Of a stretch of 64,000 nucleotides of DNA, positions 3,140 to 49,121 are shown one piece after another. Made by a program: the position numbers and the translations under genes. The DNA lies in NCBI RefSeq assembly GCF_963921235.1, contig NC_086097.1, positions 34,722,001 through 34,786,000 on the forward strand, given 5' to 3'. The DNA is from Mobula hypostoma (Eukaryota). The notes beneath the pieces were generated by a model that worked only from the letters and a program-made list of their open reading frames with translations, made no database searches and was not told the DNA's origin. Numbering within the stretch: position 1 is the stretch's first letter; every line of letters starts with the position of its first letter.

Positions 3140-3258
3140 CTGAAGATGGGTCTCAGCCTAAATTGACTGGTTATTCATTTCCATAGATGCTGCCTGAACT
3201 CCTGAGTTCCTCCAGATTTTGTGTGGGTTGCTTTGGATTTCCAGTATCTGCAGACTTT
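3140..3258 (+). mobile_element. Old, degenerate PLE 3'/hammerhead-tail fragment; target of insertion A
   Basis: ctgaagatgggtctcagcctaaattgactg...catagatgctgcctg...tttccagtatctgcagacttt resembles the young PLE tail and resumes after 6922. Confidence 0.65.
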
Positions 3259-3281
3259 GCAGCATCTATAGGAAGAGGCGC

Positions 3282-3317
3282 AGTCGACGTTTCAGGCCGA
3301 GACCCTTCGTCAGGACT
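3282..3317 (-). ncRNA. Minimal type I hammerhead ribozyme (PLE A, minus arm)
   Basis: Reverse complement reads agtc CTGACGA agggtctcggcct GAAA C GTC gact. Confidence 0.85.
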
Positions 3318-3611
3318 AACTGAAGGAAGAGTGAGTAAGGGATTTGAAAGCTGGAGGGGGAGGGGGAGATGCAAAATGATAGGAGAAGACAGGAGGGGGA
3401 GGGATAGAGCCGAGAGCTGGACAGGTGATAGGCAAAAGGGGATACGAGAGGATCATGGGACAGGAGGTCCGGGAAGAAAGACGGGGGGGGGGGTGACCCA
3501 GAGGATGGGCAAGAGGTATATTCAGAGGGACAGAGGGAGAAAAAGGAGAGTGAGAGAAAGAATGTGTGCATAAAAATGAGTAACAGCTGGGGTACGAGGG
3601 GGAGGTGGGGC

Positions 3612-5011
3612 CTAGCGGAAGTTAGAGAAGTCAATGTTCATGCCATCAGGTTGGAGGCTACCCAGACGGAATATAAGGTGTTGTTCCTCCAACCTGAGTG
3701 TGGCTTCATCTTTACAGTAGAGGAGGCCGTGGATAGACATGTCAGAATGGGAATGGGATGTGGAATTAAAATGTGTGGCCACTGGGAGATCCTGCTTTCT
3801 CTGGCGGACAGAGCGTAGATGTTCAGCAAAGCGGTCTCCCAGTCTGCGTCGGGTCTCGCCAATATATAAAAGGCCACATCGGGAGCACCGGACGCAGTAT
3901 ATCACCCCAGTCGACTCACAGGTGAAGTGATGCCTCACCTGGAAGGACTGTTTGGGGCCCTGAATGGTGGTAAGGGAGGAAGTGTAAGGGCATGTGTAGC
4001 ACTTGTTCCGCTTACACGGATAAGTGCCAGGAGGGAGATCAGTGGGGAGGGATGGGGGGGACGAATGGACAAGGGAGTTGTGTAGGGAGCGATCCCTGCA
4101 GAATGCAGAGAGAGGGGGGGAGGGAAAGATGTGCTTAGTGGTGGGATCCCGTTGGAGGTGGCGGAAGTTACGGAGAATAATATGTTGGACCCGGAGGCTG
4201 GTGGGGTGGTAGGTGAGGACCAGGGGAACCCTATTCCTAGTGGGGTGGTGGGAGGATGGAGTGAGAGCAGATGTACGTGAAATGGAGGAGATGCGTTTAA
4301 GAGCAGAGTTGATAGTGGAGGAAGGGAAGCCCCTTTCTTTAAAAAATGAAGACATCTCCCTCGTCCTAGAATGAAAAGCCTCATCCTGAGAGCAGATGCG
4401 GCGGAGACGGAGGAATTGCGAGAAGGGGATGGCGTTTTTGCAAGAGACAGGGTGAGAAGAGGAATAGTCCAGATAGCTGTGAGAGTCAGTAGGCTTATAG
4501 TAGATATCAGTGGATAAGCTGTCTCCAGAGACAGAGACAGAAAGATCTAGAAAGGGGAGGGAGGTGTCGGAAATAGACCAGGTAAACTTGAGGGCAGGGT
4601 GAAAGTTGGAGGCAAAGTTAATAAAGTCAACGAGTTCTGCATGCGTGCAGGAAGCAGCGCCAATGCAGTCGTCGATATAGCGAAGGAAAAGTGGGGGACA
4701 GATACCAGAATAGGCACGGAACATAGATTGTTCCACAAACCCAGCAAAAAGGCAGGCATAGCTAGGACCCATACGGGTGCCCATAGCTACACCTTTAGTT
4801 TGGAGGAAATGGGAGGAGCAAAAGGAGAAATTATTAAGAGTAAGGACTAATTCCGCTAGACGGAGCAGAGTGGTGGTAGAGGGGAACTGATTAGGTCTGG
4901 AATCCAAAAAGAAGCGTAGAGCTTTGAGACCTTCCTGATGGGGGATGGAAGTATATAAGGACTGGACATCCATGGTGAAAATAAAGCGGTGTGGCCCAGG
5001 GAACTTAAAAT
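3612..5011 (-). CDS. 5'-truncated but uninterrupted PLE ORF: RT, Cys linker and GIY-YIG endonuclease (probably Neptune-type)
   Basis: RT motifs MDVQSLYTSI, GVAMGTRMGPSYA and RYIDD; linker CKRNKCYTC; endonuclease GVIYCVRCSRCGLLYIGET...RFAEH...VATHF; no stop over ~465 codons. Confidence 0.9.
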
Positions 5012-6487
5012 ACCTCGACACTGTTTTATCACCCCTTGTTCAATCCCTTCCGACCTATGTTCGTGACACTTCTCACGCTCTTAAACTTTTCGATGATTTT
5101 AAGTTCCCTGGCCCCCACCGCTTTATTTTCACCATGGATGTCCAGTCCTTATATACTTCCATCCCCCATCAGGAAGGTCTCAAAACTCTACGCTTCTTTT
5201 TGGATTCCAGACCTAATCAGTTCCCCTCTACCACCACTCTGCTCCGTCTAGCGGAATTAGTCCTTACTCCTAATAATTTCTCCTTTTGCTCCTCCCATTT
5301 CCTCCAAGCTAAAGGTGTAGCTATGGGCACCCGTATGGGTCCTAGCTATGCCTGCCTTTTTGTTGGGTTTGTGGAACAATCTATGTTCCGTGCCTATTCT
5401 GGTATCTGTCCCCCACTTTTCCTTCGCTATATCGACGACTGCATTGGCGCTGCTTCCTGCACGCATGCAGAACTCGTTGACTTTATTGCCTCCAACTTTC
5501 ACCCTGCCCTCAAGTTTACCTGGTCTATTTCTGACACCTCCCTCCCCTTTCTAGATCTTTCTGTCTCTGTCTCTGAAGACAGCTTATCCACTGATATCTA
5601 CTATAAGCCTACTGACTCTCACAGCTATCTGGACTATTCCTCTTCTCACCCTGTCTCTTGCAAAAACGCCATCCCCTTCTCGCAATTCCTCCGTCTCCGC
5701 CGCATCTGCTCTCAGGATGAGGCTTTTCATTCTAGGACGAGGGAGATGTCTTCATTTTTTTAAAGAAAGGGGCTTCCCTTCCTCCACTATCAACTCTGCT
5801 CTTAAACGCATCTCCTCCATTTCACGTACATCTGCTCTCACTCCATCCTCCCACCACCCCACTAGGAATAGGGTTCCCCTGGTCCTCACCTACCACCCCA
5901 CCAGCCTCCGGGTCCAACATATTATTCTCCGTAACTTCCGCCACCTCCAACGGGATCCCACCACTAAGCATATCTTTCCCTCCCCCCCCTCTGCATTCCG
6001 CAGGGATCGCTCCCTACACAACTCCCTTGTCCATTCGTCCCCCCCATCCCTCCCCACTGATCTCCCTCCTGGCACTTATCCGTGTAAGCGGAACAAGTGC
6101 TACACATGCCCTTACACTTCCTCCCTTACCACCATTCAGGGCCCCAAACAGTCCTTCCAGGTGAGGCATCACTTCACCTGTGAGTCGACTGGGGTGATAT
6201 ACTGCGTCCGGTGCTCCCGATGTGGCCTTTTATATATTGGCGAGACCCGACGCAGACTGGGAGACCGCTTTGCTGAACATCTACGCTCTGTCCGCCAGAG
6301 AAAGCAGGATCTCCCAGTGGCCACACATTTTAATTCCACATCCCATTTCCATTCTGACATGTCTATCCACAGCCTCCTCTACTGTAAAGATGAAGCCACA
6401 CTCAGGTTGGAGGAACAACACCTTATATTCCGTCTGGGTAGCCTCCAACCTGATGGCATGAACATTGACTTCTCTAACTTCCGCTAG
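5011..6487 (+). pseudogene. PLE RT/GIY-YIG ORF, 5'-truncated, frameshifted in the T run at ~5755-5761
   Basis: ORFs 4945..5763 and 5717..6487 together give the same protein as the minus arm, with a 6-bp in-frame deletion near 5487. Confidence 0.9.
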
Positions 6488-6779
6488 GCCCCACCTCCCC
6501 CTCGTACCCCAGCTGTTACTCATTTTTATGCACACATTCTTTCTCTCACTCTCCTTTTTCTCCCTCTGTCCCTCTGAATATACCTCTTGCCCATCCTCTG
6601 GGTCACCCCCCCCCGTCTTTCTTCCCAGACCTCCTGTCCCATGATCCTCTCGTATCCCCTTTTGCCTATCACCTGTCCAGCTCTCGGCTCTATCCCTCCC
6701 CCTCCTGTCTTCTCCTATCATTTTGCATCTCCCCCTCCCTCTCCAGCTTTCAAATCCCTTACTCACTCTTCCTTCAGTT

Positions 6780-6815
6780 AGTCCTGACGAAGGGTCTCGG
6801 CCTGAAACGTCGACT
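6780..6815 (+). ncRNA. Minimal type I hammerhead ribozyme (PLE A, plus arm); predicted cleavage after 6811
   Basis: CUGANGA core, helix II, GAAA, GUC triplet, helix I AGTC/GACT. Confidence 0.85.
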
Positions 6816-7149
6816 GCGCCTCTTCCTATAGATGCTGCTTGGCCTGCTGCGTTCACCGGCAACTTTGATGTGTGTTGCTTGAATTTCCAGCATCTGCAGA
6901 ATTCCTGTTATCTGCAGACTTTCTCGGGTTTATTCTTTTAAAGTGGGAAGCAAGGGTGCCCTCACCTGGTGATTAATAATATTACAGGAAGTATTCAGCG
7001 TAACCAAATTAATCACAGAAGAGAATGGCAAGACTATTTTAAATCGAGTGAAATATTGCTCTCTTCCTTCAGAATCACAGATGATTCTATTTCAACCCCA
7101 CATTCTCATAATGTATAAAATGGACACTTGGATTTGGAACAGTGACTAA

Positions 7150-15794: not shown

Positions 15795-17351
15795 TCAACC
15801 AAATGTTTCTGGTAACTGTTGATCAGTCCTGCATATTGGCTTGGAGGAATTTTAGGCCATTCCTCCTAACAAAGCTATTTTAACTCTGGGATGCTGGTGG
15901 AGTTCATTGCTTGAACTGCTTGCTTCAGGTCCTTCCATAACGTTTCTACAGGATTAAGTTCAGGACCTTAACTCAGCCATTCCAGAATGTGAAATTTCTT
16001 CTGCTTTAACCATTCTTTGCTGGACTGACTTGTGTGTTTAGGGTCGTTGTCTTGCTGCATGACCCACTTTCTCTTGACCTTCAGTTCATGGATGGATACC
16101 CTGATATTTTTCTGTAGAATTTGCTGGTACAATTCAGAATTCATAGATCCATGAATGATGGCAAGCCATCCTGGTCCTGACGTAACAAAGCAGGCCCAAA
16201 CCATGACACTGCCACCACCATGTTTCACGGATGGGATGAGATTCTAGTGCTGGAATGTAATGCTTGCTTTTTGCCCAACATTATGCTTCTCATTTAAGCC
16301 AAAAAGTTCTGTTTTGAACTCATCCGTAAACAGAACATTTCTCCAATATCCTCTGGCTTATCCATGTGGTCTTTAGCAGACTTTAGATGGGCAGCAATAT
16401 TCTTCTTGGAGAGTAGTGGCTTTCTCCTTGCAATCTTGCCATGCACACCATTGTTCAGTGTTTGCCTGATGGTAAACTCATGAACACTGACATCAGCCAA
16501 TGTAAAAGAGCCTTAACAACAGGAATTCTGCAGATGCTGGAAACTCAAGCAACACACATCAAAGTTGCTGGTGAATCAGCAGGCCAGGCAGCATCTCTAG
16601 GAAGAGGTACAGTCAACGTTTCAGGCCGAGACCCTTCGTCAGGACTAACGAAGGGTCTCGGCCTGAAACGTTGACTGTACCTCTTCCTAGAGATGCTGCC
16701 TGGCCTGCTACATTCACCAGCAACTTTGATAAAAGAGCCTTAGATGTTATCCTGAGGTTCTTTGTGATCTCCTGGACTATTACACGCCTGGAATGAATTT
16801 TGTTGGCCCTGGCGAGAGTAACAACAGTGTTGAATTTCCTCCATTTGTACACAATCTGTCTGACTGTGGATTGGTGGAGCCCAAACTCTTTAGGAATGGT
16901 TTGTGTATCCTTTTCCAGCCTGGTGAGCATCAACTACTATTTTTCCAAGATCCTCAGAAATCTCCTTTGATCGAGGCATGGCACGCTTCCAAAAACCTGT
17001 GGTGAAGATCAGGCTATGATGGTGATAGACCCGGGTTTATGTTCTTCGAGTAGGGCAGGGCCTCCCACACTCTCACGTGATAGTCATCCCATTGATTGAA
17101 ACACCTGACTCTAATTTCCCCTTTAAATGAACTGATAATCCTAGAGGTTCACATACTTTTTCTGACAAATACATGTAATATTAGATCATTTATCTCAATA
17201 AGTAAATGAAGAAGTATAATTTTTGTTTGTTATTTAATTGGGTTCTCCTTATCTAGTTTTAGGACTTGCGTGAAGTTCTGATCGCACTTTAGGTCATTTA
17301 TTCAGAAATAGAGAAAATTCTAAAGGGTTCACATACTTTCTAGCACCACTG
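15795..17351 (-). mobile_element. Tc1-like DNA transposon, degenerate, interrupted by PLE insertion E
   Basis: KHGGGSVMVWACF, QQDNDPKHTS, IARRKPLLSKKN; terminus TA-cagtggtgctagaaagt on the minus strand. Confidence 0.85.
16516..16729. mobile_element. PLE insertion E: 214-bp inverted doublet of hammerhead plus tail only
   Basis: TSD taaaagagcctta at 16503..16515 and 16730..16742; junction microhomology 'ac' at 16648..16649; hammerhead at 16611..16646 (-), GUU triplet. Confidence 0.9.
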
Positions 17352-19045: not shown

Positions 19046-22000
19046 TTTTTAATTAATTTTTTTATGAGTTTCTACATTAGAACAAAAAAAACAACGAAAA
19101 GGAAATTTAAACAGTGCAAAACCAACGTGTTCGATGTACAATTCATAACAGTAAAGAAAAAGCACCCAAAATAAAATCATATAAAGTTAGTTTCCACTCC
19201 ACCCTCCCATTACACACTCCAAGCCAACCATTATGATATAAAGAAAAGTTAATCAGAGCTTTTGTCACCACAAAGCTGTGAATATAAAAAACGTTTATTG
19301 CCTACTACCTAAACTATAGTATATTTCACATCATTAAAAAAACACCATAAAAGTTAACCAGAAAAGAAAGCTGGATGTAAGGGACTAAATCACTGAAAGA
19401 AAAAGGAAGATAAACCTTTATTCTAAAGAGGAGTTATGAAAATAATCAAGAAAAGGTCCCCACACCTTATGGAACTTTGTGTCCGAATTAAGAAGTGAAT
19501 AAATGAATCTTTTCCAGGCCTAAGCAGGACATAATGTCTCTAAGCTGTTCAGCATGAGTGGGTGGGGCAACATCTCTTCACCTTAGAAGAACTAAACGTC
19601 TAGCCAAAAGAGAGGCAAAGGACAATGTTCGCCGTTTAGTCGGACTCAAATGCATGTCAACTTCACTCAAAATGCCAAAAAGAGCAATGAAAGGGTTAGG
19701 TTCTAAGTGGCATTTAAGGATATGGGATAAAGTTAAAAAGACATCTCTCCAAAATTCTTCCAAACTGGGACAAGCCCAATACACGCGGACAAGAGAAGCC
19801 TTGCCCACTATACACTTGTCACAAAAGGGACTAATATCAGAGTAGAACCGCAATAATTTGGCTTTAGACATATGATCCTTATGTGCAACCTTGAACTGCA
19901 AAAGGCAGTGGCGAGCACATAAAGAGGTTGAGTTAACTGACTTAAGAATTGAATCCCAAACCTCATCGGACAGAGAAATATTTAAATCATGCTCCCAGGC
20001 AATTCTAATTTTACCAAAGGGGTCATATCTCAAGGTTGCTAACTTATCACGAATAGTAGATATTAAACTTTTACCCAATGGGTTTATAACAAAGAAACAA
20101 GTCCACAACATTTTTTCTGGGCATCTCAGGAAAATTTGGTATTAAAGGGTTAATAAAATGTCTAACTTAAAGATATCTAAAGAAATGAGTATTAGGTACG
20201 TTAAATTTTGCAGACAATTGTTCAAAAGTTGCAAAACTATTATCTATGAAAAGATCTTCAAAACGCTTGATGCTCTTTCTGTACCAATCATGAAGTGTTA
20301 AGTCTTGCATAGAAGGTCGGCAAAGATGATTATGAAAGATAGGACTAGAGAGGGAGAAACCATAAGGACCATAATGTTTTCTGAACTGAGCCCATATTCT
20401 CAGAGTATGTCTAATGAGAGGATTAACAATCAGTTTAGGCAAATGACAAGGAAGTGCGGAAATGGAGAAATCCTTAAGGGAGTTCAACTCCATTGCCACC
20501 CATTTTGGGCAGTCAGACTGATTATGAAAGAAAGACCAAAAAGAATATTGGCTGCCCAGTAATAAAAATGAAAATTGGGCAAGGCCATACCAACTTCCCT
20601 TTTAGGTTTTTGAAGGTGAGCTTAATATTAAGTTTGGAATGTTTGCCCTTCTATAGATAGGACAAAATAATAGAATCTAACGAATTAAAAAAAGCTTTAG
20701 AAATAAAAATTGGTAAGGATTGGAATAAGTATAAAAATTTAGGAAGGATATACATTTTAACAACATTAATTTGACCTACCAGAGATGTGGACAGAGGTGA
20801 CCAGTGTGCCAAATTCTGTTTTGTATGATTTAAAAGATTAGTAAAATTTTCTTGAAAGAGATGCTTGAAGTTCCTTGTTACAGTAATACTGAGGTAAGTG
20901 AATTGATTAAGTACTACTTTAAAAGGGAGGTTATGAAATTCTAATATTTGTGCTTCTCTATTAATTGGGAAGAGTTTGCTCTTGTGTAAATTAAGTTTGC
21001 ATCTGGAAAGCTGGCTAAATTTATTAAGTAGTGAAAACATTGGGGGTAAGGAGGTAGTCGGATTTGATATGAAAAGTAAAAGATCATCAGCATAAAGAGA
21101 AACTTTATGCTCAACACCCCCCCCAATCCCCATCAATTTAGCGCAGCTACGAAACGCAATCGCCAGTGGTTCTATGGCCAAATCAAACAGCAAGGGACTT
21201 AAAGGGCACCCTTGCCGGGTGCCACGTTTAAGGTTAAAAGGTTGGGATTGCTGAGAGTTGGTCGAATATAGCAATTTAATCCATGTAATAAAACTTTGTC
21301 CAAAGTCAAATTTTTCCCGCAAAAAGATAATTCCACTCCACACGATCAAACGCTTTTTCCGCATCAAGAGAGACAACACATTCAGAGTCCCAATTGAAGG
21401 TGAATAGAAAATATTAAATAGATGCTGTATATTAAAAAAGGGGAGGTGATTTTTAATAAAACCAGCTTGATCTTCAGAAATAATTGAGGGTACAATATTC
21501 TCCAATCTACGAGCCAAAATTTTAACATCAACATTTAACAAAGAAATCGGTCTATATGAGGAACACTCTGTTGGGTCTTTGCCTTTTTTCACTAAAAGAA
21601 TGATACTTGCCTTATTAAATGATGCTGGCAATTGACCATGTTTAAACGAATCGGATAAAACTAAGGTTAATTGAGGCAAAAGCAGTGAGGAAAATGATTT
21701 ATAGAATTCTGCAGAGAACCCATCTGGTCCAGGAGATTTACCAGACTGCAGTGCAGAAATGGCTAAAGATATTTCCTCTAATGATAATGGCTCATTGAGT
21801 TTTGCTTTGAAATCAGGAGAAAGCGAAGGAATATTTAAACTGTTTAAGAAATGCTCGACAGAAACGCTATCAATTAAAGATTCAGAGGAATAGAGTCGAG
21901 AATAATAATTCTTGAATGTATCATTGATTTCAGAATGATTCAAGGTAATGTTCCCATTTCCCATTCGAATTTTAGTAATTTGTTGTTTAACTTTAGAGCG

Positions 22001-23434
22001 TTTTAGTTGATTGACTAAAAATTTACCGGATTTATCACCATGAATATAAAACCAGCTCTTACTTTCGAGAAGTTGGTGTTCAATTGGATGAGTGGAAATA
22101 AGGTCAAACTTAGTTTAAAGTTCCACTCACTTCTTGTACAGTTCTGGATTTTTGGTCTGAGCATATAGTTGGTTGGTTGCTTTAATTTGGTTGACCAGAT
22201 CTAATCGCTCTGTAGAGGATTTTCTTTTCAAATTCACAGTATATGAAATTATTTGACCCCTTGGATATGCTTTCATGGCATCCCAGACAACCTGAGTTGA
22301 GGTTTCAGATGACATGTTAATATCTAAAAAAAAAGTGTTATTTGGTCCTTCATAAAATTTACAAAATCATTATCCGACAACAGGGTCGGATTAAAACGCC
22401 AGTGTTTATTCATTTGAGGGAGACCAGGAAGAAATATGGACAGGGTAACTGGGGCATGATCCGAAATCAATATACTCTCATAATCACAAGAGCGAACAGA
22501 TGGAATCAGCAGATTATGGATTTAAAAAAATAATCAATTCTAGTAAAAGTATGATGGACATGTGGAGAAAAAAAAGAGTAATCTCTCTCACTTGGATGAA
22601 GAGAACGCCAAACATCAGAGATCAGAGATACCATAATTAGAAAGGAAAGACTGAATTGATAAAGCAGATTTACTTGGTAGTCCAGGAACAGAGGATGATC
22701 GATCCATAGCTAGATCTAACCAACAGTTAAAGTCACCGCCCAATTTAAGAGAATATAAGCTCAGGTCAGGCAATAAAGAGAAAAAACGATCAAAAAACTC
22801 CACATCATCCAAATTGGGGTCATACAGGTTAGCCAAAACTACCCTAGTATTATATAATTTCCCAGAAACAATAATAAAACAACCATTTGTACCAGATATT
22901 TGGCTGTGAAGCTCAAAAGGAACATTTTGATTTATAAGAATAGAGACCCCCCCCCCCCCGGCTTTAGCCGGAAAAGTAGAATGGAAGTGCTGCCCCACCC
23001 ACCTTGACATGAGACGGGAATTATCAGAACTACCAAAGTGTGTTTCTTGCAAAAAAGCAATTGCAGCTTTGAGCTGCTTAAGATGTGAAAACAATTTCCT
23101 CCTTTTAACAGGATGGTTCAAACCCCTAGCATTCCAGCTTATAAAATTCAATGGACTCACCTTTGTCATTTAAAAAAACATGGAGAGTAGTAGGCATGAG
23201 CAAAATCAAACAAACAACAGCTCTGGGGCAAAAACATAAAACAGGAGAATCAGGACAGAAATATGTCCTGAATAACTAAAGATCCTATAAATGCTATTGG
23301 CAATAGAGATCCCTGCCCCCCCCCCCCCCCCCCAGATCCCACAACAAGAAAGCTATCTAAGATCAGCAGCAAGCTGTTGGGAAAAAAACCACCCCAAAAC
23401 CCAACTTCCAGGTTCTTAATATCAACATAAGCTC

Positions 23435-24081
23435 GTAAACACGAGGAATTCTGGAGATGCTGGAAATTCAAGCAACACACATCAAATTTGCTGGTGAATG
23501 CAGCAGACCAGGCAGCATCTCTAGGAAGAGGTACAGTGGACGTTTCGGGCTGAGACTCTTCGTCAGGACTAACTGAAGGAAGAGCTAGTAAGAGATTTGA
23601 AAGTGGGAGGGGGAGGGGGAAGATCCAAAATGATAGGAGAAGACAGGAGGGGGAGGGATGGAGCCAAGAGCTGGAGAGGTGATTGGCAAAGGGGATATGA
23701 GAGGATCATGGGACAGGAGGCCCAGGGAGAGGGAAAGGGGGGAAGGAGAAAAAAAACCCAGAGGATGGGCAAGGGGTATAGTCAGAGGGACAGAGAGAGA
23801 GAGAGAAAGAATGTGTGTATATAAATAAATAACAGATGGGGTACGAGGGGGAGGTGGGGCATTAGCGGAAGTTAGAGAAGTCAATGTTCATGCCATCAGG
23901 TTGGAGGCTACCCAGACGGAATATAAGGTGTTGTTCCTCCAACCTGAGTGTGGCTTCATCTTTACAGTAGAGGAGGCCGTGGATAGACATGTCAGAATGG
24001 GAATGGGATGTGGAATTAAAATGTGCGGCCACTGGGAGATCCTGCTACCCAATCTGTTATTTATTTATATACACTCATATA

Positions 24082-24149
<68 letters not shown>

Positions 24150-24682
24150 TTTCTCTCTCTCTCTTTTCTCTCTCTCTCTCTTTTCTCTCTCTCTCTCTCT
24201 TTTCTCTCTCTTTTCTCTCTCTCTCTCTCTTTTCTCTCTCTTCTCTTTCTCTCTCTCTCTCTCTCTTTTCTCTCTCTCTCTCTCTTTTCTCTCTCTCTCT
24301 TCTCTCTCTCTCTCTTTTCTCTCTCTCTCTCTCTCTCTTCTCTCTTCTCTCTCTTCTCTCCTCTCTCTCTTCTCTCCCCCCCTCTCTCTCTCACTATACC
24401 CCTTGCCCATCCTCTGGGTTCCCCCCACTTTTCCTTCTCCTTGGGCCTCCTGTCCCATGATCCTCTCGTATCCCTTTTGCCTATCGCCTGTCCAGCTCTT
24501 GGCTCTATCCCTCCCCCTCCTGTCTTCTCCTATCATTTTGGATCTCCCCCTCCCCCTCCAACTTTCAAATCTCTTACTCACACTTCCTTCCGTTAGTCCT
24601 GACGAAGGGTCTCAGCCCTAAACGTCGACTGCACCTCTTCCTAGAAATGCTGCCTGGCCTGCTGCGTTCACCAGCAACTTTG
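23435..24682. mobile_element. PLE insertion D: inverted doublet (minus arm 23435..~24046, plus arm ~24046..24682) in the L1 inter-ORF region
   Basis: TSD atcaacataagctc at 23421..23434 and 24683..24696; mutated hammerheads at 23535..23570 (-) and 24595..24630 (+). Confidence 0.9.
24083..24392 (+). repeat. Interrupted (CT)n microsatellite expansion, ~310 bp
   Basis: Directly visible; the other arm has only a short (GA)n run at ~23792..23806. Confidence 0.95.
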
Positions 24683-26809
24683 ATCAACATAAGCTCCATT
24701 TGTTAACAATTCAAAAACCAGAAAAATTACGCACTACAAATTAGAATTATACTTAGAGAAAAGAAAAACAATTCCACCAAAATGTATTAAGCTTAACTCA
24801 AAGTAATAGTCCAAAAGAAAAGATATGAACTAAGAAAGACTCAAACAAAGTTTACCCAGTAACCTACCCACGAGAAACTATGGATAAAAATTCACTGACT
24901 TGGAAAAAGAAAAAAAAGTACTTGTCCATCATTTTGACTAATCAAACCAAGTCTGAGGAAATGGAAGTAGCAGGGAGACTTTCGATAAATTTCTGAGCTT
25001 CTGTAACCAAGTTAAACCACGTTTTTTCTCCGGTAGCAAGAGTTATTCGGAGACGAGCTGGAAAACGCAGAGAGGGCCCGAGTCCACGATTGTAGAACTC
25101 TTTCATGACTCCTTTATATTCTGCTTGTAGACTCAGAACTTGGGGAGTATAATCCTCGACAATACAGATAGATTGACCCTTGTACAGGTTTCCCCCGCCA
25201 TCTGAAGGTAGAGCGTTCCTATGAAACGGTTCGTAAGCCAGAAGGTCGTAAAGCGCAGAAGCAATTACCATTTATTTATATGGGAAAAATTTGTGAGCAT
25301 TTGCAGACCCAAAAATAACCTACCAAATTGTGCCAAATATCACATAAAACCTAAAATAACAGTAACATATAGTAAAAGCAGGAATGATATGATAAGTACA
25401 CAGCCTATATAAAGTAGAAATACTTCTCTACAATCATTGCCTGCACTGTTCTCCGTAGCGAAAATCTCACCAAGCTCTCTCGGCAGAAACACTCTCTCCA
25501 GTAAACCTTTAAGCTATGAAGCTGCCAAATCATACCAAATAACACATAAAAATACACAGCCTATATAAAGTAGAAATAATGTGTGTACAGTGTAGTATCA
25601 CTTACCGGAATCGAGAAGTCAGCGCTGAGTGCAGTTGAGTCATCGCAGGCTGGGTGGTGCAGTGGCCCCCACCCTCCAGGCCGCCGACTGATACATTGCT
25701 GCAAAGCATGCAGGGGTACAGCGGTGGCCGGGACGCACCCAGCACATCTTTAAGAGAAAAGCCAAAATAAACAAGCTAATTAATTAGGTGCCGCCCGGCA
25801 CGTAAATGTCGGCCCAGATCAGAGGCGACGCAATCGGTAATTGCCTCTGATCTGGGCCGACATTTACATGCCGGGCGGCACCTAATTAATTAGCTTGTTT
25901 ATTTCAGCTTTTTTTCTTAAAGATGTGCTGGGTGCCTCCTGGCTATGGCTGCATTCTCCGCGAATCGGTATCTGTCCGCGGCCCAGGGGTTGGGGTGATG
26001 GGACACTGGGCTGTCATCTCATCGTCGTCTGTTTCCATTAGGGCAGGCAGGTCATCTTCTATGTCTGCCTGCCTCGATGTCGAAGGTCGAGGTTCGTCGT
26101 CTGCTGTGGCTGATGTGGAAGGCTTGCTTGACTGTTAGCCTTGCGATTTTTCTATCATACAGTTCTTCGTAAGTACTCAAACATCTTGCAAATATGCCCT
26201 ACACCGACGTACCCTTTCAAAATTAAAGTCGTACTTTTCTGCAATTATTGCAGTGAAAATCTCACGCAGTTGCTTCACGTTCAGTTCCTGGACGACTTCA
26301 CTTTCGGTCCACTCACTACTGCATTCGGTTTCGATTGCTATCCTTTCCTCTTCCAATTGCATCAGCTCTTCATCTATCAGTTCTTCGTTATGCAATGCCA
26401 AAACCTCTTCAACATCATCTTCGTTAACTTCCACAAGCCAAACTCACTTTGTCCTTACTTCGTTCACCACGATCAAAACGTTTAATTATGTCTAGTTTTA
26501 CGCTAAGTGTAGCACCCTTACAAGCTCTTTTAGGCTTTTCTGATACCTTAAACTCATCTTGCAAACGGACGCTCACAGGCACATGTTTAAGCAATGCCGG
26601 CTAGAATGCCGTTCCGAATCCGGGGGAGAGCAGCTGCTCGGGGCGCACGCTGCCTTTTTTCGTAACAGTGAAAACACCTTCTATTAGCGAAAACAGGGAA
26701 CTAATGTAGGTAAACAACAGGAATTCTGCAGATGCTGGAAATTCAAGCAACATACATCAAAGTTGCTGGTGAACGCAGCAGGCCAAGCAGCATCTATAGG
26801 AAGAGGCGC

Positions 26810-26845
26810 AGTCGACGTTTCAGGCCGAGACCCTTCGTCAGGACT
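26810..26845 (-). ncRNA. Minimal hammerhead ribozyme (PLE B, minus arm)
   Basis: Same motif as 6780..6815. Confidence 0.85.
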
Positions 26846-28018
26846 AACTGAAGGAAGAGTGAGTAAGGGATTTGAAAGCTGGAGGGGGAGGGGGAGATGC
26901 AAAATGATAGGAGAAGACAGGAGGGGGAGGGATAGAGCCGAGAGCTGGACAGGTGATAGGCAAAAGGGGATACGAGAGGATCATGGGACAGGAGGCCTAG
27001 GGAGAAAGACGGGGGGGGGTGACCCAGAGGATGGGCAAGAGGTATATTCAGAGGGACAGAGGGAGAAAAAGGAGAGTGAGAGAAAGAATGTGTGCATAAA
27101 AAGGAGTAACAGCTGGGGTACGAGGGGGAGGTGGGGCCTAGCGGAAGTTAGAGAAGTCAATGTTCATGCCATCAGGTTGGAGGCTACCCAGACGGAATAT
27201 AAGGTGTTGTTCCTCCAACCTGAGTGTGGCTTCATCTTTACAGTAGAGGAGGCCGTGGATAGACATGTCAGAATGGGAATGGGATGTGGAATTAAAATGT
27301 GTGGCCACTGGGAGATCCTGCTTTCTCTGGCGGACAGAGCGTAGACATGCCCTTACACTTCCTCCCTTACCACCATTCAGGGCCCCAAACAGTCCTTCCA
27401 GGTGAGGCATCACTTCACCTGTGAGTCGACTGGGGTGATATACTGCGTCCGGTGCTCCCGATGTGGCCTTTTATATATTGGTGAGACCCGACGCAGACTG
27501 GGAGACCGCTTTGCTGAACATCTACGCTCTGTCCGCCAGAGAAAGCAGGATCTCCCAGTGGCCACACATTTTAATTCCACATCCCATTCCCATTCTGACA
27601 TGTCTATCCACGGCCTCCTCTACTGTAAAGATGAAGCCACACTCAGGTTGGAGAAACAACACCTTATATTCCGTCTGGGTAGCCTCCAACCTGATGGCAT
27701 GAATATTGACTTCTCTAACTTCCGCTAGGCCCCACCTCCCCCTCGTACCCCAGCTGTTACTCCTTTTTATGCACACATTCTTTCTCTCACTCTCCTTTTT
27801 CTCCCTCTGTCCCTCTGAATATACCTCTTGCCCATCCTCTGGGTCACCCCCCCCCGGTCTTTCTCCCTAGGCCTCCTGTCCCATGATCCTCTCGTATCCT
27901 CTTTTGCCTATCACCTGTCCAGCTCTCGGCTCTATCCCTCCCCCTCCTGTCTTCTATCATTTTGCATCTCCCCCTCCCCCTCCAGCTTTCAAATCCCTTA
28001 CTCACTCTTCCTTCAGTT

Positions 28019-28054
28019 AGTCCTGACGAAGGGTCTCGGCCTGAAACGTCGACT
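28019..28054 (+). ncRNA. Minimal hammerhead ribozyme (PLE B, plus arm)
   Basis: agtcctgacgaagggtctcggcctgaaacgtcgact. Confidence 0.85.
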
Positions 28055-28641
28055 GCGCCTCTTCCTATAGATGCTGCTTGGCCTGCTGCGTTCACCAGCA
28101 ACTTTGAACTAATGTAGGTCTTTCATAACAGTGAGGTTTCGTAAAACGAACGTTCGAAAAGCGGGGAACACCTGAATTCCAACTTTCCTCTCTGACGTGC
28201 TTCCATAATCAAAAGGTTTTTCACCTTACAGCGATGAAAACAGAGAATTAATGGGTGTAGCCTATGGCCCAACTCCGGCTTAGGCGTAAAAGTACGGTGG
28301 ACTCGGAAGAATATCATTCCCAAAAATTTCACAAAGTAATGTAGAAAAAAATTCAACTGGGGATTCACTTTCGATAGCCTCTGGCAAGCCGAGGATTTGT
28401 AGATTTTGACGTCTGTTGCGACCTTCCAGATCCATAACTTTGGATATTAACTTGCTGTTATAATCCCTCAAGCTGGAGCAAGCGGTTCCCAAATCGTGAA
28501 AGCAGCGTTTTAAATCATCGGTAGCAGACTCAAGAAGAGAAAGACGTTTGGCATGAGCCTCCACTTTGGAATTAATTTGATCTAATTTGGATTCCAACGA
28601 ACCGAAAGAAGTCTTAAATTCAGACTTGAGTTCGAATACTA

Positions 28642-31430: not shown

Positions 31431-31635
31431 TGGATTTCAAATTAAATCTGTTGAGTTCCTTAGTCTTAACAATTCAGAGCTAGAAACTTGAACTGTTGGG
31501 TCAGCTACTGAATACATCAAATTTTGAGCTGGGGATTTGGAGAACAATTTTGCTGCATAAAAATAAGATGGAATTGTCTATTTTACTTCTGTGCTTATTT
31601 ATCTCATTTAAGATCGTGGAGGGATAAGCTCAGTC

Positions 31636-37640: not shown

Positions 37641-38254
37641 GTCCGCCAGAGAAAGCAGGATCTCCCAGTGGCCACACATTTTAATTCCACATCCCATTCC
37701 CATTCTGATATGTCTATCCATGGCCTCCTCTACTGTCAAGATGAAGCCACACTCAGGTTGGAGGAACAACACCTTATATTCCGTCTGGGTAGCCTCCAAC
37801 CTGATGGCATGAACATTGACCTCTCTAACTTCCGCTAATGCCCCACCTCCCCCTCGTACCCCATCCATTATTTATTTATATACACACATTCTTTCTCTCT
37901 CTGTCCCTCTGACTATACCCCTTGCCCATCCTCTGGGTTTCCCCCCCTCCCCCTTTTTCTTCTCCCTGGGCCTCCTGTCCCATAATCCTCTCATATCCCT
38001 TTTGCCAATCACCTGTCCAGCTCTTGGCTCCATCTCTCCCCCTCCTGTCTTCTCCTATCGTTTTGGATCTCCCCCTCCCCCTCCCACTGTCAAATCTCTT
38101 ACTAGCTCTTCTCTCAGTTAGTCCTGACGAAGGGTCTCGGCCCGAAACGTCGACTGTACCTCTTCCTAGAGATGCTGCCTGGCCTGCTGCGTTCACCAGC
38201 AACTTTTATGTGTGTGGCTTGAAATTCCAGCATCTGCAGAATTCCTCGTGTTTA
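37641..38254 (+). mobile_element. PLE insertion F: single-arm 5'-truncated copy (older subfamily) with hammerhead at 38120..38155
   Basis: TSD tgatagtagctgt at 37628..37640 and 38255..38267. Confidence 0.9.
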
Positions 38255-41003
38255 TGATAGTAGCTGTCTGGTGTCCAGGTATGAGTTCATTCTAAACTCT
38301 GTTGCTTGTGTTTCAACCCACAGCATGTCCTGTGAACCTATGACCTCTGTGCTTGCTGGCTCACACAGGCTCCCAGTTAAGTAACATCACCATTTTAAAA
38401 TTCTCATCTCTTAAATCCCTTCAATGTCTCAGCTTTCCCCTTCTCTATGACCCTATGAGATTTGAGTATTTCCATAGTTGAATTTAAATGCTTCAGCTAC
38501 GGCAGCTGAACTGAATAAGCTGATCTTCCTTTTAAAGCCTCTGTAACTGTCGACATTTTTACACCTTTGAGAAGTTCTTTTAGATCTACATTGTGCACAC
38601 ATTAGTGTTTTCTTCTCTTGGATCTTGTAGTACTTGAGACACTTATGTTAAAGGGGCTATAGAAGTGAAAGCTGGTGAATTTACTCTGTTTGGAATAAGT
38701 GAAGAAAAGCAAGGGAAGGAGAGGTATGTGGAAGAATTGATAAAACAAGATCAGAAAATGAGGGAAGGTAAGAAAATAGCAAAATATTGCTGGAAATGTG
38801 ACAGTAGATAATGTTGGAAATCTTTAGTAGGACAGGCAACATCTGTGGAAAGAGAAACCATAGTATTTTGAATGAATAAATTTTCAGCAGTTTTTTGTTC
38901 ATTAGATATAAATCCATGTTTAAATTATAAAGATGGGATTACCAAGAGAGATGCTGTTTTAAAGATGGATGTGAATATACTCTTTTTGGGTTCCAGCTGG
39001 GTACAGGTATCCCCGATGAAGATGGCAGAGTTTGTCATTGTTATATTCAATACTTGTACTTGGCGGGAAGCGCGAGAAGAGTTTATTCGTCATGTATGCC
39101 GGGAAAGCACTAGATCCTTTTTTTCAAAGATAGTCACATTAGCCTTTTCAGATGTGTGGCCTATAAATAACTTCCCTCAGGAATTTTGGGTTGTATACGG
39201 CATAGGGCATGAGTTGAAAAACAAAAGAAATGCAGGTGCTAGAAATCTGAAATGAAAACAGAAAAATGCAGTAAATCAAGCTGTATATATAGAGAACTAA
39301 AAGTTACCATTTCAAGTCATCACGTGACTGTAATTTTGATACATTGAACTATTTACACCTGGATTTATATGATAGCTTCTGAAAATCAATGCACATCAGT
39401 CAGTAGTTCACTGTCAATTAGCAATTTTATAGTTTTGTCATTCAGGCTAACACAATTAATTTGTACTTGGCCATGATCTACAAACAGAATAGGGTAATAT
39501 CCAGAACAGATCTATTTGTGAAGACAACCATTCCTTGAGAGAAAATGGGTTTTGGTGTAGGGATGAGTAATTGTATCAGGTCACAGCGGATGCCTGACTT
39601 TGTGATTTCTTCTTTTAATTAAGGGAATTGATTATCTTTGAATTCATCCCTTTCACTTCAGGCTTTAACATTTAAATTGGCACCCCTCACCACGGCAACA
39701 CTGTATAGCAGGAAGACAGAATATGTAGCACTGTTGTGTTACATACTATCTATCATTTATGGTTCATTTAGCAAACTACTGAACACTACACTGTTTATCA
39801 TTAGTAATTCCAAAAAAGAGTGGGAACCTCTCTCACCTCCATCTGTCAGACTGCCTGGGAAATTGGCCCACAATGTGTTTTATTGGAGAACTGATGAAAT
39901 GTCCATAACAAAGCATGTACAACAAACAGACATTTTATATTAGTTTTCCTTGGCTTTCCTTCACATCTGATATCAGAATAAAAGGAAGCCATATTGAAAA
40001 TAATTATTATCTATGAACACCTTTTTTCTGAGCCATTTTACAAAGTCAACATGATGATGTGAATTGGGAGAGTGCTAACAGTGACTCTGAGCTATGATTG
40101 CCATCCTGATGAAAAATACCAAATCCCTATTTTTGCCAGTACAAGTGAACTAAGAAAATGCAAGATATGACATCGATCAGATCTAAAAAAAAAATTGGTA
40201 TTTTGTTACAGAGTCCTCAGCCAGGAAGAATAAAATGGATTAATCCTGTTTCACCCCTAACAGATACTGTAATTCTGGCCAGTTGTCTCAATTTGGGTTT
40301 TGCCATATGGAAATAATGCCTGAAATTAAATGGAAAACAAAATATTAAAGTAATTGGAATAGAAAGCAATGGAAAGGCAGTATATCAATCAGCAATAAAT
40401 TCAGATGTGTGCCCACCATCAAAACAGATGACTGAAGTAAGAACGGACAAGTTAAGTTAGAAAAACTAAAGAGAAAGAGAACAAGGAATAGGATCAATAA
40501 TGTTGCCATATATAAGAAAAAATGGACATTTCTAGTTGCAACCAAATTTTGACTGAAGTCTACTGGTGGTTGACAATATCTCATTTATATATTGACTTGA
40601 ACATTGAAAAAAATAACCTCAGGCATTCCAAAGGAGAATTACCCAATGTTGTCACACAAGAAAAAGAGATATCTACTAGTGAATGGGATAAAGCAGTAAA
40701 AAAAGGTATCTTTACGGATGGGATTTTTGGCAGACTAGGGAACCATGTAAAATGTAAAAACAATATTGTAAACTAATGTTAAAGGTAGTGTAAATGCTTG
40801 TGCGCAGTAATGTTATTCTTATTTTTGACCACTAGATGGCGCATACAATTTTGGTTAGAACTAAGTTTGCCCAGCTTTAGATTCAGAATTAGATTTATTA
40901 TACGTAAACAACAGGAATTCTGCAGATGCTGGAAATTCAAGCAACATACATCAAAGTTGCTGGTGAACGCAGCAGGCCAAGCAGCATCTATAGGAAGAGG
41001 CGC

Positions 41004-41039
41004 AGTCGACGTTTCAGGCCGAGACCCTTCGTCAGGACT
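41004..41039 (-). ncRNA. Minimal hammerhead ribozyme (PLE C, minus arm)
   Basis: Same motif as 6780..6815. Confidence 0.85.
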
Positions 41040-42199
41040 AACTGAAGGAAGAGTGAGTAAGGGATTTGAAAGCTGGAGGGGGAGGGGGAGATGCAAAATG
41101 ATAGGAGAAGACAGGAGGGGGAGGGATAGAGCCGAGAGCTGGACAGGTGATAGGCAAAAGGGGATACGAGAGGATCATGGGACAGGAGGCCTAGGGAGAA
41201 AGACGGGGGGGGGTGACCCAGAGGATGGGCAAGAGGTATATTCAGAGGGACAGAGGGAGAAAAAGGAGAGTGAGAGAAAGAATGTGTGCATAAAAAGGAG
41301 TAACAGCTGGGGTACGAGGGGGAGGTGGGGCCTAGCGGAAGTTAGAGAAGTCAATGTTCATGCCATCAGGTTGGAGGCTACCCAGACGGAATATAAGGTG
41401 TTGTTCCTCCAACCTGAGTGTGGCTTCATCTTTACAGTAGAGGAGGCCGTGGATAGACATGTCAGAATGGGAATGGGATGTGGAATTAAAATGTGTGGCC
41501 ACTGGGAGATCCTGCTTTCTCTGGCGGACAGAGCGTAGATGTTCAGCAAAGCGGTCTCCCAGTCTGCGTCGGGTCTCACCAATATATAAAAGGCCACATC
41601 GGGAGCACCGGACGCAGTATATCACCCCAGTCGACTCACAGGTGAAGTGATGCCTCACCTGGAAGGACTGTTTGGGGCCCTGAATGGTGGTAAGGGAGGA
41701 AGTGTAAGGGCATGTGTAGCACTTGTTCCGCTTACACGGATAAGTGCCAGGAGGGAGATCAGTGGGGAGGGATGGGGGGGACGAATGGACAAGGGAGTTG
41801 TGTAGGGAGCGATCCCTGCGGAATGCAGAGAGAGGGGGGGAGGGAAAGATGTGCTCAGTGGTGGGATCCTGTTGGAGGTGGCGGAAGTTACGGAGAATAA
41901 TATGTTGGACCCGGAGGCTGGTGGGGTGGTAGGTGAGGACCAGGGGAACCCTATTCCTAGTGGGGTGGTGGGAGGATGGAGTGAGAGCAGATGTACGTGA
42001 AATGGAGGAGATGCGTTTAAGAGCAGAGTTGATAGTGGAGGAAGGGAAGCCCCTTTCTTTAAAAAAGGAAGACATCTCCCTCGTCCTAGAATGAAAAGCC
42101 TCATCCTGAGAGCAGATGCGGCGGAGACGGAGGAATTGCGAGAAGGGGATGGCGTTTTTGCAAGAGACAGGGTGAGAAGAGGAATAGTCCAGATAGCTG

Positions 42200-43732
42200 G
42201 CCGACCTATTGTCTCAGCTTGCTCCTGCCCCACCGAACTCGTTTCTGCATACCTCGACACTGTTTTATCACCCCTTGTTCAATCCCTTCCGACCTATGTT
42301 CGTGACACTTCTCACGCTCTTAAACTTTTCGATGATTTTAAGTTCCCTGGCCCCCACCGCTTTATTTTCACCATGGATGTCCAGTCCTTATATACTTCCA
42401 TCCCCCATCAGGAAGGTCTCAAAGCTCTACGCTTCTTTTTGGATTCCAGACCTAATCAGTTCCCCTCTACCACCACTCTGCTCCGTCTAGCGGAATTAGT
42501 CCTTACTCTTAATAATTTCTCCTTTTGCTCCTCCCATTTCCTCCAAACTAAAGGTGTAGCTATGGGCACCCGTATGGGTCCTAGCTATGCCTGCCTTTTT
42601 GTTGGGTTTGTGGAACAATCTATGTTCCGTGCCTATTCTGGTATCTGTCCCCCACTTTTCCTTCGCTATATCGACGACTGCATTGGCGCTGCTTCCTGCA
42701 CGCATGCAGAACTCGTTGACTTTATTAACTTTGCCTCCAACTTTCACCCTGCCCTCAAGTTTACCTGGTCTATTTCCGACACCTCCCTCCCCTTTCTAGA
42801 TCTTTCTGTCTCTGTCTCTGGAGACAGCTTATCCACTGATATCTACTATAAGCCTACTGACTCTCACAGCTATCTGGACTATTCCTCTTCTCACCCTGTC
42901 TCTTGCAAAAACGCCATCCCCTTCTCGCAATTCCTCCGTCTCCGCCGCATCTGCTCTCAGGATGAGGCTCTTCATTCTAGGACGAGGGAGATGTCTTCAT
43001 TTTTTAAAGAAAGGGGCTTCCCTTCCTCCACTATCAACTCTGCTCTTAAACGCATCTCCTCCATTTCACGTACATCTGCTCTCACTCCATCCTCCCACCA
43101 CCCCACTAGGAATAGGGTTCCCCTGGTCCTCACCTACCACCCCACCAGCCTCCGGGTCCAACATATTATTCTCCGTAACTTCCGCCACCTCCAACGGGAT
43201 CCCACCACTAAGCATATCTTTCCCTCCCCCCCCCTCTGCATTCCGCAGGGATCGCTCCCTACACAACTCCCTTGTCCATTCGTCCCCCCCATCCCTCCCC
43301 ACTGATCTCCCTCCTGGCACTTATCCGTGTAAGCGGAACAAGTGCTACACATGCCCTTACACTTCCTCCCTTACCACCATTCAGGGCCCCAAACAGTCCT
43401 TCCAGGTGAGGCATCACTTCACCTGTGAGTCGACTGGGGTGATATACTGCGTCCGGTGCTCCCGATGTGGCCTTTTATATATTGGTGAGACCCGACGCAG
43501 ACTGGGAGACCGCTTTGCTGAACATCTACGCTCTGTCCACCAGAGAAAGCAGGATCTCCCAGTGGCCACACATTTTAATTCCACATCCCATTCCCATTCT
43601 GACATGTCTATCCACGGCCTCCTCTACTGTAAAGATGAAGCCACACTCAGGTTGGAGGAACAACACCTTATATTCCGTCTGGGTAGCCTCCAACCTGATG
43701 GCATGAACATTGACTTCTCTAACTTCCGCTAG
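42200..43732 (+). pseudogene. PLE RT/GIY-YIG ORF from RPIVS onward, frameshifted in the C run at ~43226-43234
   Basis: ORFs 42091..43305 and 42962..43732. Confidence 0.9.
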
Positions 43733-44025
43733 GCCCCACCTCCCCCCGTACCCCAGCTGTTACTCCTTTTTATGCACACATTCTTTCTCTCACTCTCCTT
43801 TTTCTCCCTCTGTCCCTCTGAATATACCTCTTGCCCATCCTCTGGGTCACCCCCCCCCCCGTCTTTCTCCCTAGGCCTCCTGTCCCATGATCCTCTCGTA
43901 TCCCCTTTTGCCTATCACCTGTCCAGCTCTCGGCTCTATCCCTCCCCCTCCTGTCTTCTCCTATCATTTTGCATCTCCCCCTCCCCCTCCAGCTTTCAAA
44001 TCCCTTACTCACTCTTCCTTCAGTT

Positions 44026-44061
44026 AGTCCTGACGAAGGGTCTCGGCCTGAAACGTCGACT
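44026..44061 (+). ncRNA. Minimal hammerhead ribozyme (PLE C, plus arm)
   Basis: Same motif as 6780..6815. Confidence 0.85.
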
Positions 44062-44137
44062 GCGCCTCTTCCTATAGATGCTGCTTGGCCTGCTGCGTTC
44101 ACCAGCAACTTTGATGTATGTTGCTTAGATTTATTAT

Positions 44138-49012: not shown

Positions 49013-49121
49013 AACACACATCAAAGTTGCTGGTGAACGCAGCAGGCCAAGCAACATCTGTAGCAAGAGGTGCAGTCGATGTTTCAGGCCGAGACCCTTC
49101 GTCAGGACTCCATGAATATGG
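49013..49121 (-). mobile_element. PLE insertion G: hammerhead plus tail only, with a short filler sequence
   Basis: Hammerhead variant at 49074..49109; imperfect TSD aaatggataggt (49001..49012) / aaatagataggt (49122..49133). Confidence 0.75.

What the first reader, a model, noticed from the sequence alone, without database searches (positions are those of the whole stretch)
23435..24682. The two arms of doublet D come from different PLE subfamilies
Seen: in element orientation the minus arm reads catatc, ccaatc, ctccat, tactagct and actgtacc, matching the older single copy F. The plus arm reads cgtatc, cctatc, ctctat, tactca and actgc, matching the young copies A, B and C. Five linked sites differ, yet both arms lie inside one 14-bp TSD. 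Inference: two different RNA templates were used in one integration event, which argues against fold-back copying of a single cDNA.
Basis: partly seen in the sequence, partly recalled or inferred. Interest (0 to 1): 0.8.

Follow-up and report, generated by a model that had tools for sequence, protein, structure and literature searches.

The report
Two-template Penelope head-to-head insertion
One insertion of a Penelope-like jumping gene holds two back-to-back halves that come from two different lineages of the element, which likely means that both cut ends of the target DNA were extended separately on two different RNA templates rather than one half being copied from the other.

Summary
The main observation holds; one label does not. 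D (23435-24682) is a head-to-head pair of 5'-truncated Neptune-type Penelope-like element (PLE) ends inside an exact 14-bp TSD. The tail is on one arm only, and there is no second TSD. Over 307 aligned sites, 7 have minus arm = F and plus arm = young copies, and 0 show the reverse. One-template simulations never gave 6 or more (0 of 36,000). A tree test rejects sister arms (p=0.014; 0.056 in the harshest masking). But the plus arm is not the young A/B/C type. It sides with the minus arm and F at 17 interleaved sites, so it is a third, intermediate lineage of similar age. Fold-back copying alone is excluded. The best reading is two-ended target priming on two RNAs (0.55). Rivals are later gene conversion (0.2) and one RNA carrying two different tandem units (0.17). 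The layout is published, and two-RNA insertions are known for L1; my searches found no report of mixed-lineage PLE arms. This scan has noted similar mismatched arms at other loci of this genome and in a shark. No whole genome was held, so the genome-wide test is open.

The parts
23421..23434 (.). Left copy of the 14-bp target-site duplication
   Evidence: exact repeat
23435..24046 (-). Minus arm (D_L): last ~190 nt of the PLE ORF (GIY-YIG end), 3' UTR, hammerhead core and tail; same lineage as single copy F
   Evidence: D_L+F support 98/96
23435..23482 (-). 48-nt one-sided tail, absent from the plus arm
23533..23698 (-). Span of the 7 lineage-informative sites in the minus arm
23540..23566 (-). 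Minimal hammerhead core (CTGACGA...GAAA), intact motif
   Evidence: motif scan; no Rfam hammerhead hit
24046..24047 (.). Inversion junction; 1-nt overlap, no palindrome, no duplication
24047..24682 (+). Plus arm (D_R): 5'-truncated 3' UTR, tail-less; third lineage between the F type and the young A/B/C type
24092..24392 (+). 301-bp pure pyrimidine tract at the position of the element's own short (CT)n; inferred later expansion
24468..24632 (+). Span of the 7 lineage-informative sites in the plus arm, interleaved with 6 old-type substitution sites and one old-type indel
24599..24625 (+). Minimal hammerhead core with GAAA changed to TAAA (change seen only in this arm)
24683..24696 (.). Right copy of the 14-bp TSD; its first 2 nt also fit the element
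20651..23169 (-). Decayed APE-endonuclease + RT LINE next to D; D sits in its multi-copy upstream sequence
37641..38254 (+). Comparator: single copy F, 13-bp TSD (37628-37640, 38255-38267)
3259..6908 (.). Comparator: young doublet A, 14-bp TSD; holds the RT + GIY-YIG frame
26712..28105 (.). Comparator: young doublet B, 14-bp TSD; arms mutually non-nested
40902..44124 (.). Comparator: young doublet C, 13-bp TSD; arms mutually non-nested
16516..16729 (.). Comparator: mini doublet E, 13-bp TSD

Best explanation
D is one integration of a Neptune-type Penelope-like element whose two arms come from two different lineages of the family, most likely because the element's enzyme cut both strands 14 bases apart and extended each free end separately on a different RNA. 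Shown: one TSD, opposite arms, a one-sided tail, arms of different ancestry and equal age. Inferred: (1) staggered nicks by the GIY-YIG domain; (2) one end primed at the distal start site (tailed arm), the other at a start site about 46-48 nt upstream (tail-less arm), each with 1-2 nt of target match; (3) the two templates were RNAs of two lineages active at the same time; (4) the two 5'-truncated cDNAs were joined at 24046/24047. Speculative: a protein dimer, or hammerhead-mediated RNA pairing, brings two RNAs to one site.
For: 7 of 307 sites have D_L=F and D_R=young, 0 the reverse, 1 (a CpG) D_L=D_R against both. 0 of 36,000 one-template simulations reached 6; 5 was reached in 0-4 of 4,000 per setting. 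D_L+F support 98/96, and sister arms are rejected at p-AU 0.014, or 0.029 without three CpG-type columns. Private changes are equal: D_L 7, D_R 8, F 9, and 4 against 4 inside the informative span, so the arms are equally old. No second TSD. The length of the poly-pyrimidine spacer also splits the arms: D_L 36, F 33; D_R and three young arms 27. A contig of run X3 over 24541-24601 (depth 676; low-copy flank contigs about 40) has only 3 differences from D_R, where young or F-type copies would have 5, which suggests a multi-copy D_R-like lineage (letters not shown, so inferred). In doublets B and C each arm holds sequence that the other lacks, so neither can be a copy of its partner. A purified Poseidon PLE cuts and extends both strands, starts reverse transcription at two sites that bound the tail, and is predicted to be a dimer (PMC11167929). 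L1 makes opposite-orientation insertions from two RNAs (PMC11702581; PMC13174262).
Against: One locus and one member of the third lineage; no genome-wide set. With CpG-type columns dropped and the adjacent pair counted once, the tree test slips to p=0.056. All 7 substitution sites lie within 165 of the plus arm's 636 bases, as a conversion tract would. In A, B and C partner arms share their 3' UTR subtype markers, so mixed pairs are not the rule here (1 of the 4 doublets long enough to type). The young arms show a four-gamete conflict, so copies in this family do exchange sequence. The in vitro work is on a Poseidon element, not on this clade.
Confidence: 0.55

Rival explanations
1. Both arms were first copied from one template; later, ectopic gene conversion from another genomic copy overwrote most of one arm and left the TSD intact.
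For: The family is extremely abundant (over 130,000 contig records laid in each of two relatives' runs). The informative sites span 165 bp (about 210 bp with the spacer length). Partial and full conversions are documented for Alu, at about 2% of elements (PMC554112). The four-gamete conflict among A and C arms points to exchange between copies.
Against: No rejuvenation: 4 private changes in each arm inside the span. Outside the span the arms share no derived base that would mark a common template; their only shared derived base is one CpG decay inside it. The donor cannot be a young-type copy, because old-type sites are interleaved.
Confidence: 0.2
2. One RNA molecule, read through a mixed tandem source locus with two different units, was primed from both target ends, one end in each unit.
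For: PLEs lie in tandem or partial-tandem arrays, and the proposed mRNA holds several copies (PMC11167929). PLE-into-PLE insertion occurs here: A sits inside the 3' end of an older PLE. This would also explain why partner arms in A, B and C share subtype.
Against: No head-to-tail PLE tandem of two lineages was seen among the hits in this 64-kb window. It needs a specific mixed source.
Confidence: 0.17
3. One template (fold-back or self-priming of one cDNA, or one RNA copied twice), with the shared states arising by parallel mutation.
For: D's arms are nested, as fold-back needs (and the junction). Two of the 7 sites are CpG-type. Self-priming was proposed for head-to-head PLEs (PMC3846280).
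Against: 0 of 36,000 simulations reach 6 sites. Tree tests reject sister arms. There is no palindrome at D's junction. B and C are geometrically incompatible with fold-back.
Confidence: 0.03
4. A second element inserted later at the 5' edge of a first single-arm insertion.
For: Single-arm insertions exist (F), and PLEs insert into PLEs (A).
Against: No second duplication: the longest repeat between the junction and either end is 6 nt, while A-F all have 13-14-bp TSDs. The arms are equally old. Among the contig pieces listed for four relatives' runs, only uninterrupted target was seen at the right junction (this does not prove absence).
Confidence: 0.03
5. Assembly or polishing chimera across the long pyrimidine tract.
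For: All informative plus-arm sites lie to the right of a 301-bp low-complexity tract, and no read was laid across it.
Against: The right part ends in the matching 14-bp TSD. The plus arm carries private changes at the rate of its neighbours. Its 5' piece left of the tract continues in register.
Confidence: 0.02

Closest known systems
Inverted-pLTR (head-to-head) insertions of EN+ Penelope-like elements, e.g. Pen2a_Av of Adineta vaga (PMC3846280, passages read) and the general layout in PMC8557442 (passages read)
   Same: Inverted 5'-truncated copy, one TSD around the unit, tail at one end only, RT + C-terminal GIY-YIG in longer relatives, minimal hammerhead core.
   Different: The tail here is 46-48 nt against the 30-40 bp described. 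The passages read propose self-priming or leave the mechanism undefined, and do not report arms from different lineages.
Poseidon of Anolis carolinensis in vitro (PMC11167929; parts 1-2 of 4 of the text read)
   Same: Both strands cut and extended; two RT start sites that bound the tail; dimer predicted.
   Different: Different clade (no linker Zn-finger motif in Penelope/Poseidon). The part read does not test whether one or two RNAs serve the two ends.
L1 twin priming with two RNAs (PMC11702581, section 7 and passages; PMC13174262, passages)
   Same: One TSD, two inserted pieces in opposite orientation, each read as primed from one target end on a different RNA.
   Different: APE endonuclease and poly(A) priming; the second RNA is usually a host RNA; the outcome is rare. 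In this PLE family head-to-head pairs are the common outcome (5 of 6 TSD-bounded insertions in the window) and both arms start near the element's 3' end.
Gene conversion between Alu subfamilies (PMC554112, passages)
   Same: Sequence of another subfamily inside an intact TSD.
   Different: There it is shown by orthologues or by short contiguous tracts; here no boundary or age difference was found.

Membership tests
EN+ Penelope-like element | RT followed by a C-terminal GIY-YIG endonuclease in one ORF | tested here: met
   Relative A (3615-5036): RVT_1 E=2e-4 and GIY-YIG E=3e-4, both just under Pfam cut-offs. D itself keeps only the ORF's end.
EN+ Penelope-like element | CCHH motif with cysteines between GIY and YIG | tested here: met
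   Cysteines lie between the two motifs and histidines follow, in the translation; read by eye against the definition in PMC8557442.
EN+ Penelope-like element | 5' truncation, inverted adjacent copy, TSD, one-sided tail | tested here: met
EN+ Penelope-like element | Minimal hammerhead motif in the terminal repeat | tested here: inconclusive
   Core motif found in 10 arms or copies and at 1 unrelated place; broken in D_R; no Rfam hammerhead match; monomer folds not informative.
Neptune clade of PLEs | CX2-5CxxC motif in the RT-EN linker (shared with Nematis) | tested here: met
   C-X4-C-X2-C in the translation; definition.
Neptune clade of PLEs | RT phylogeny with reference PLEs | not tested
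   No reference set on hand.
Young A/B/C subfamily (plus arm) | Carries the young diagnostic bases throughout | tested here: not met
   Young state at 7 of 24 sites that separate D_L+F from young copies; old state at 17.
F-type lineage (minus arm) | Groups with F | tested here: met
   Support 98/96; 95/90 in the harshest masking.
Two-RNA twin priming (as in L1) | Opposite-orientation pieces in one TSD | tested here: met
Two-RNA twin priming (as in L1) | Pieces come from different source sequences | tested here: met
Two-RNA twin priming (as in L1) | Two separate RNA molecules at the time of insertion | not testable with these tools
   Needs genome-wide pairs, orthologues or a mixed-template assay.
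Two-RNA twin priming (as in L1) | L1 ORF2p machinery, poly(A) end | tested here: not met
   GIY-YIG element, no poly(A) at either end. It works like it but is not a member.

The most novel reading that the evidence does not exclude
Every head-to-head PLE insertion is built by a dimeric complex that carries two RNAs, one for each nicked strand and each read from its own start site. Partner arms usually match only because one source dominates at a time, and D is a case where two co-active lineages were caught together.
Probability: 0.35. Interest if true: 0.7.

Novelty: new variant of a known kind. Interest (0 to 1): 0.42.

Why it matters
How PLEs make their typical inverted insertions is called undefined in PMC8557442, and PMC3846280 proposed self-priming. 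Mixed-lineage arms in one TSD are a natural experiment against fold-back and for separate priming of both target ends, and they fit the two-strand extension seen in vitro. The question can be settled by counting in this genome, where the family is abundant. As a single locus it is a clue, not proof.

Tried and rejected
No whole genome is held, so no genome-wide tree. Searches for more loci gave nothing: viral contigs 0, metagenome contigs 0 by pattern and 0 of 83 candidates by protein, prokaryote genome contigs 0. None of the 23 listed runs held half of the words of the left flank and arm (best 0.47), so they are probably relatives. Laying contigs of four runs was swamped by the family: one search showed 40 of 144 difference rows, many of them in the flank, and one search gave no difference rows inside the arm, so allele linkage could not be read. 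The two sides were laid separately, so no contig could bridge the whole insertion. In run X1 the only contig over 24704-24760 (140 nt, depth 44.8) aligns from the first TSD base with 39 unaligned letters before it. That length fits an empty site continuing a flank contig with no substitutions that ends at 23411, if contigs overlap by 30 letters (recalled). The letters were not shown and the contig is multi-copy, so orthologue and paralogues cannot be told apart, and absence of a filled or one-arm allele is not proven. My first label, Poseidon, was dropped after the linker motif check. A conversion tract from a young copy was rejected because old sites are interleaved. 'The arms are too different for their age' was rejected as an argument: 15 of the 22 differences are private and fit age. 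Single-strand folds of the hammerhead region were uninformative, and one of the three stretches was mis-placed. PMC9977147 held nothing on inverted PLE pairs in the passages found. Columns left out before counting: the pyrimidine tract, the poly-C/T spacer (25 alignment columns), TSD bases, and arm A_L (it ends early).

Full report
Setting. The window is vertebrate repeat-rich DNA with a WD40 gene, LINEs and many copies of a Penelope-like element. Earlier scan notes call the genome ray-like; I did not test that. No whole genome is held. [quoted passage not shown] It has cysteines between GIY and YIG and a C-X4-C-X2-C linker, which PMC8557442 gives for Neptune and Nematis. I call it Neptune-type by motif; no RT tree was made.

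Anatomy of D. An exact 14-bp TSD flanks 23435-24682. The minus arm is 23435-24046. The plus arm starts at 24047, not after the pyrimidine tract: its first 32 bases match the element, and the 301-bp tract at 24092-24392 lies where the element has a short (CT)n. The minus arm has a 48-nt tail that the plus arm lacks. The two outer ends share 1 and 2 nt with the TSD, and the centre has a 1-nt overlap and no palindrome. Five of the 6 TSD-bounded insertions in the window (A, B, C, D, E) are such pairs with a longer and a shorter 3' end; F is single. TSDs are 13-14 bp.

The observation. All five motif pairs are as written, and a seventh nucleotide follows the same pattern. I counted on 307 gap-free columns, leaving out the tract, the poly-C/T spacer and TSD bases. 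D_L=F and D_R=young at 7 sites; the reverse at 0; D_L=D_R against both at 1 (a CpG); young alone at 17; private to D_L 7, D_R 8, F 9. Those are interleaved with the 7, so the plus arm is neither a young copy nor a young tract; it is a third lineage. Distances agree: D_L-F 17, D_L-D_R 22, D_R-F 25, D_R-B_L 26 of 307.

Is it more than chance? I simulated two arms mutating from one template (9 settings, 4,000 runs each, CpG rate 6-20 times). The count never reached 6; it reached 5 in 0-4 and 4 in 12-27 of 4,000. Counting the adjacent pair once gives 6 events, of which 4 are not CpG-type. The tree joins D_L with F (98/96) and rejects sister arms at p-AU 0.014. Without three CpG-type columns p is 0.029; with one of the adjacent pair also dropped it is 0.056. 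The excluded spacer agrees by length: 36 and 33 in D_L and F, 27 in D_R and three young arms.

Relatives. Contigs of four runs show a very abundant family. One X3 contig over 24541-24601 has 3 differences from D_R where young or F-type copies would have 5, at depth 676 against about 40 for low-copy flank contigs. That suggests a multi-copy D_R-like lineage, but the letters were not shown. Loose-end consensus strings in runs X19 and X20, which hold fewer of the window's words, carry the D_L/F base at three of the sites. This hints that D_R shares derived states with the young copies and is an early step towards them; it rests on few contigs. At the right junction, contigs of X1 and X19 align from the first TSD base, as an uninterrupted target would. 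No filled or one-arm junction was among the listed pieces, which is not proof of absence.

Other doublets. In A both arms share A-type markers, and in B and C both arms share the other type, so partners usually match. In B and C the tailed arm is the shorter at its 5' end, so each arm has sequence the other lacks and neither can be a fold-back copy of its partner. D is nested, so for D only the variants exclude fold-back. One unexplained result: A_R and C_R share a substitution and a nearby small deletion that A_L and C_L lack, in conflict with the 3' UTR grouping. This fits either mixed templates in young doublets or exchange between copies, and it keeps the conversion rival alive.

Mechanism. 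I commit to two-ended target-primed reverse transcription on two RNAs (0.55). Support from print: a purified Poseidon protein cuts and extends both strands, starts at two sites that bound the tail and is predicted to be a dimer (PMC11167929, parts 1-2 of 4 read). PLE hammerheads may work as dimers (PMC4209133, passages), which is only a possible way to pair RNAs. Rivals: early conversion of one arm (0.2; Alu precedent in PMC554112, passages; against it, equal private loads and no tract edge); one RNA with two different tandem units (0.17); parallel mutation (0.03); second insertion (0.03; no second TSD); assembly chimera (0.02).

What is known. The layout is textbook for EN+ PLEs (PMC3846280 and PMC8557442, passages). 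Two-RNA opposite-orientation insertions are known for L1 (PMC11702581, passages and section 7; PMC13174262, passages). Searches for PLE arms of different subfamilies or PLE twin priming (listings and abstract starts) found no such report. The library lacks most subscription papers, including the 2005-2006 PLE structure papers cited there, and I read no supplements. This scan's own notes report mismatched arms at several loci of this genome and in a shark, and others favour one RNA. They are unchecked leads, not support.

Verdict. The feature is real and the arms have different ancestry, but the plus arm was mislabelled. The anatomy is known; the mixed ancestry is a useful, testable clue to an open mechanism. 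New variant of a known kind, interest 0.42.

Noticed in passing
window 6031-6051 region (A plus arm) and the matching stretch of the C plus arm near 43220-43240: The plus arms of A and C share a substitution and a nearby 2-3-nt deletion in the ORF that both minus arms lack, while 3' UTR markers group arms by doublet: a four-gamete conflict. Alignment columns 1017 and 1035-1037; the window coordinates are approximate.
   Followed up: partly
window 3170-3258 and 6909-6935: Doublet A is inserted inside the tail region of an older, diverged PLE 3' end; its tail-less arm stops about 25 nt earlier than those of B, D and E.
   Followed up: partly
window 26712-28105 and 40902-44124: In B and C the tailed arm is the shorter at the 5' end, so the arms are mutually non-nested. 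Private substitutions are uneven between partners (B plus arm 5, plus a 3-nt deletion; B minus arm 0).
   Followed up: partly
window 16516-16729: 214-bp mini doublet E with a 13-bp TSD, its inversion point at the hammerhead core.
   Followed up: partly
window 25746-25925: About 180-bp near-perfect hairpin (MITE-like); weak miRNA model hits far below their cut-offs.
   Followed up: no
window 24092-24392: 301-bp pure pyrimidine tract with internal higher-order repeats, grown inside the plus arm.
   Followed up: no
window 31612-32802: Intact single-exon WD40 ORF; it looks like WDR89 (recalled label, not tested).
   Followed up: no
window 34501-35936: Tc1/mariner-like transposase remnants in an inverted arrangement (379-nt arms, 93%).
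   Followed up: no
window 49010-49112 and 57105-57159: Short PLE 3'-end fragments; the first has the plus-arm bases at the last informative site but young-type bases next to it, so it may be a further intermediate.
   Followed up: no
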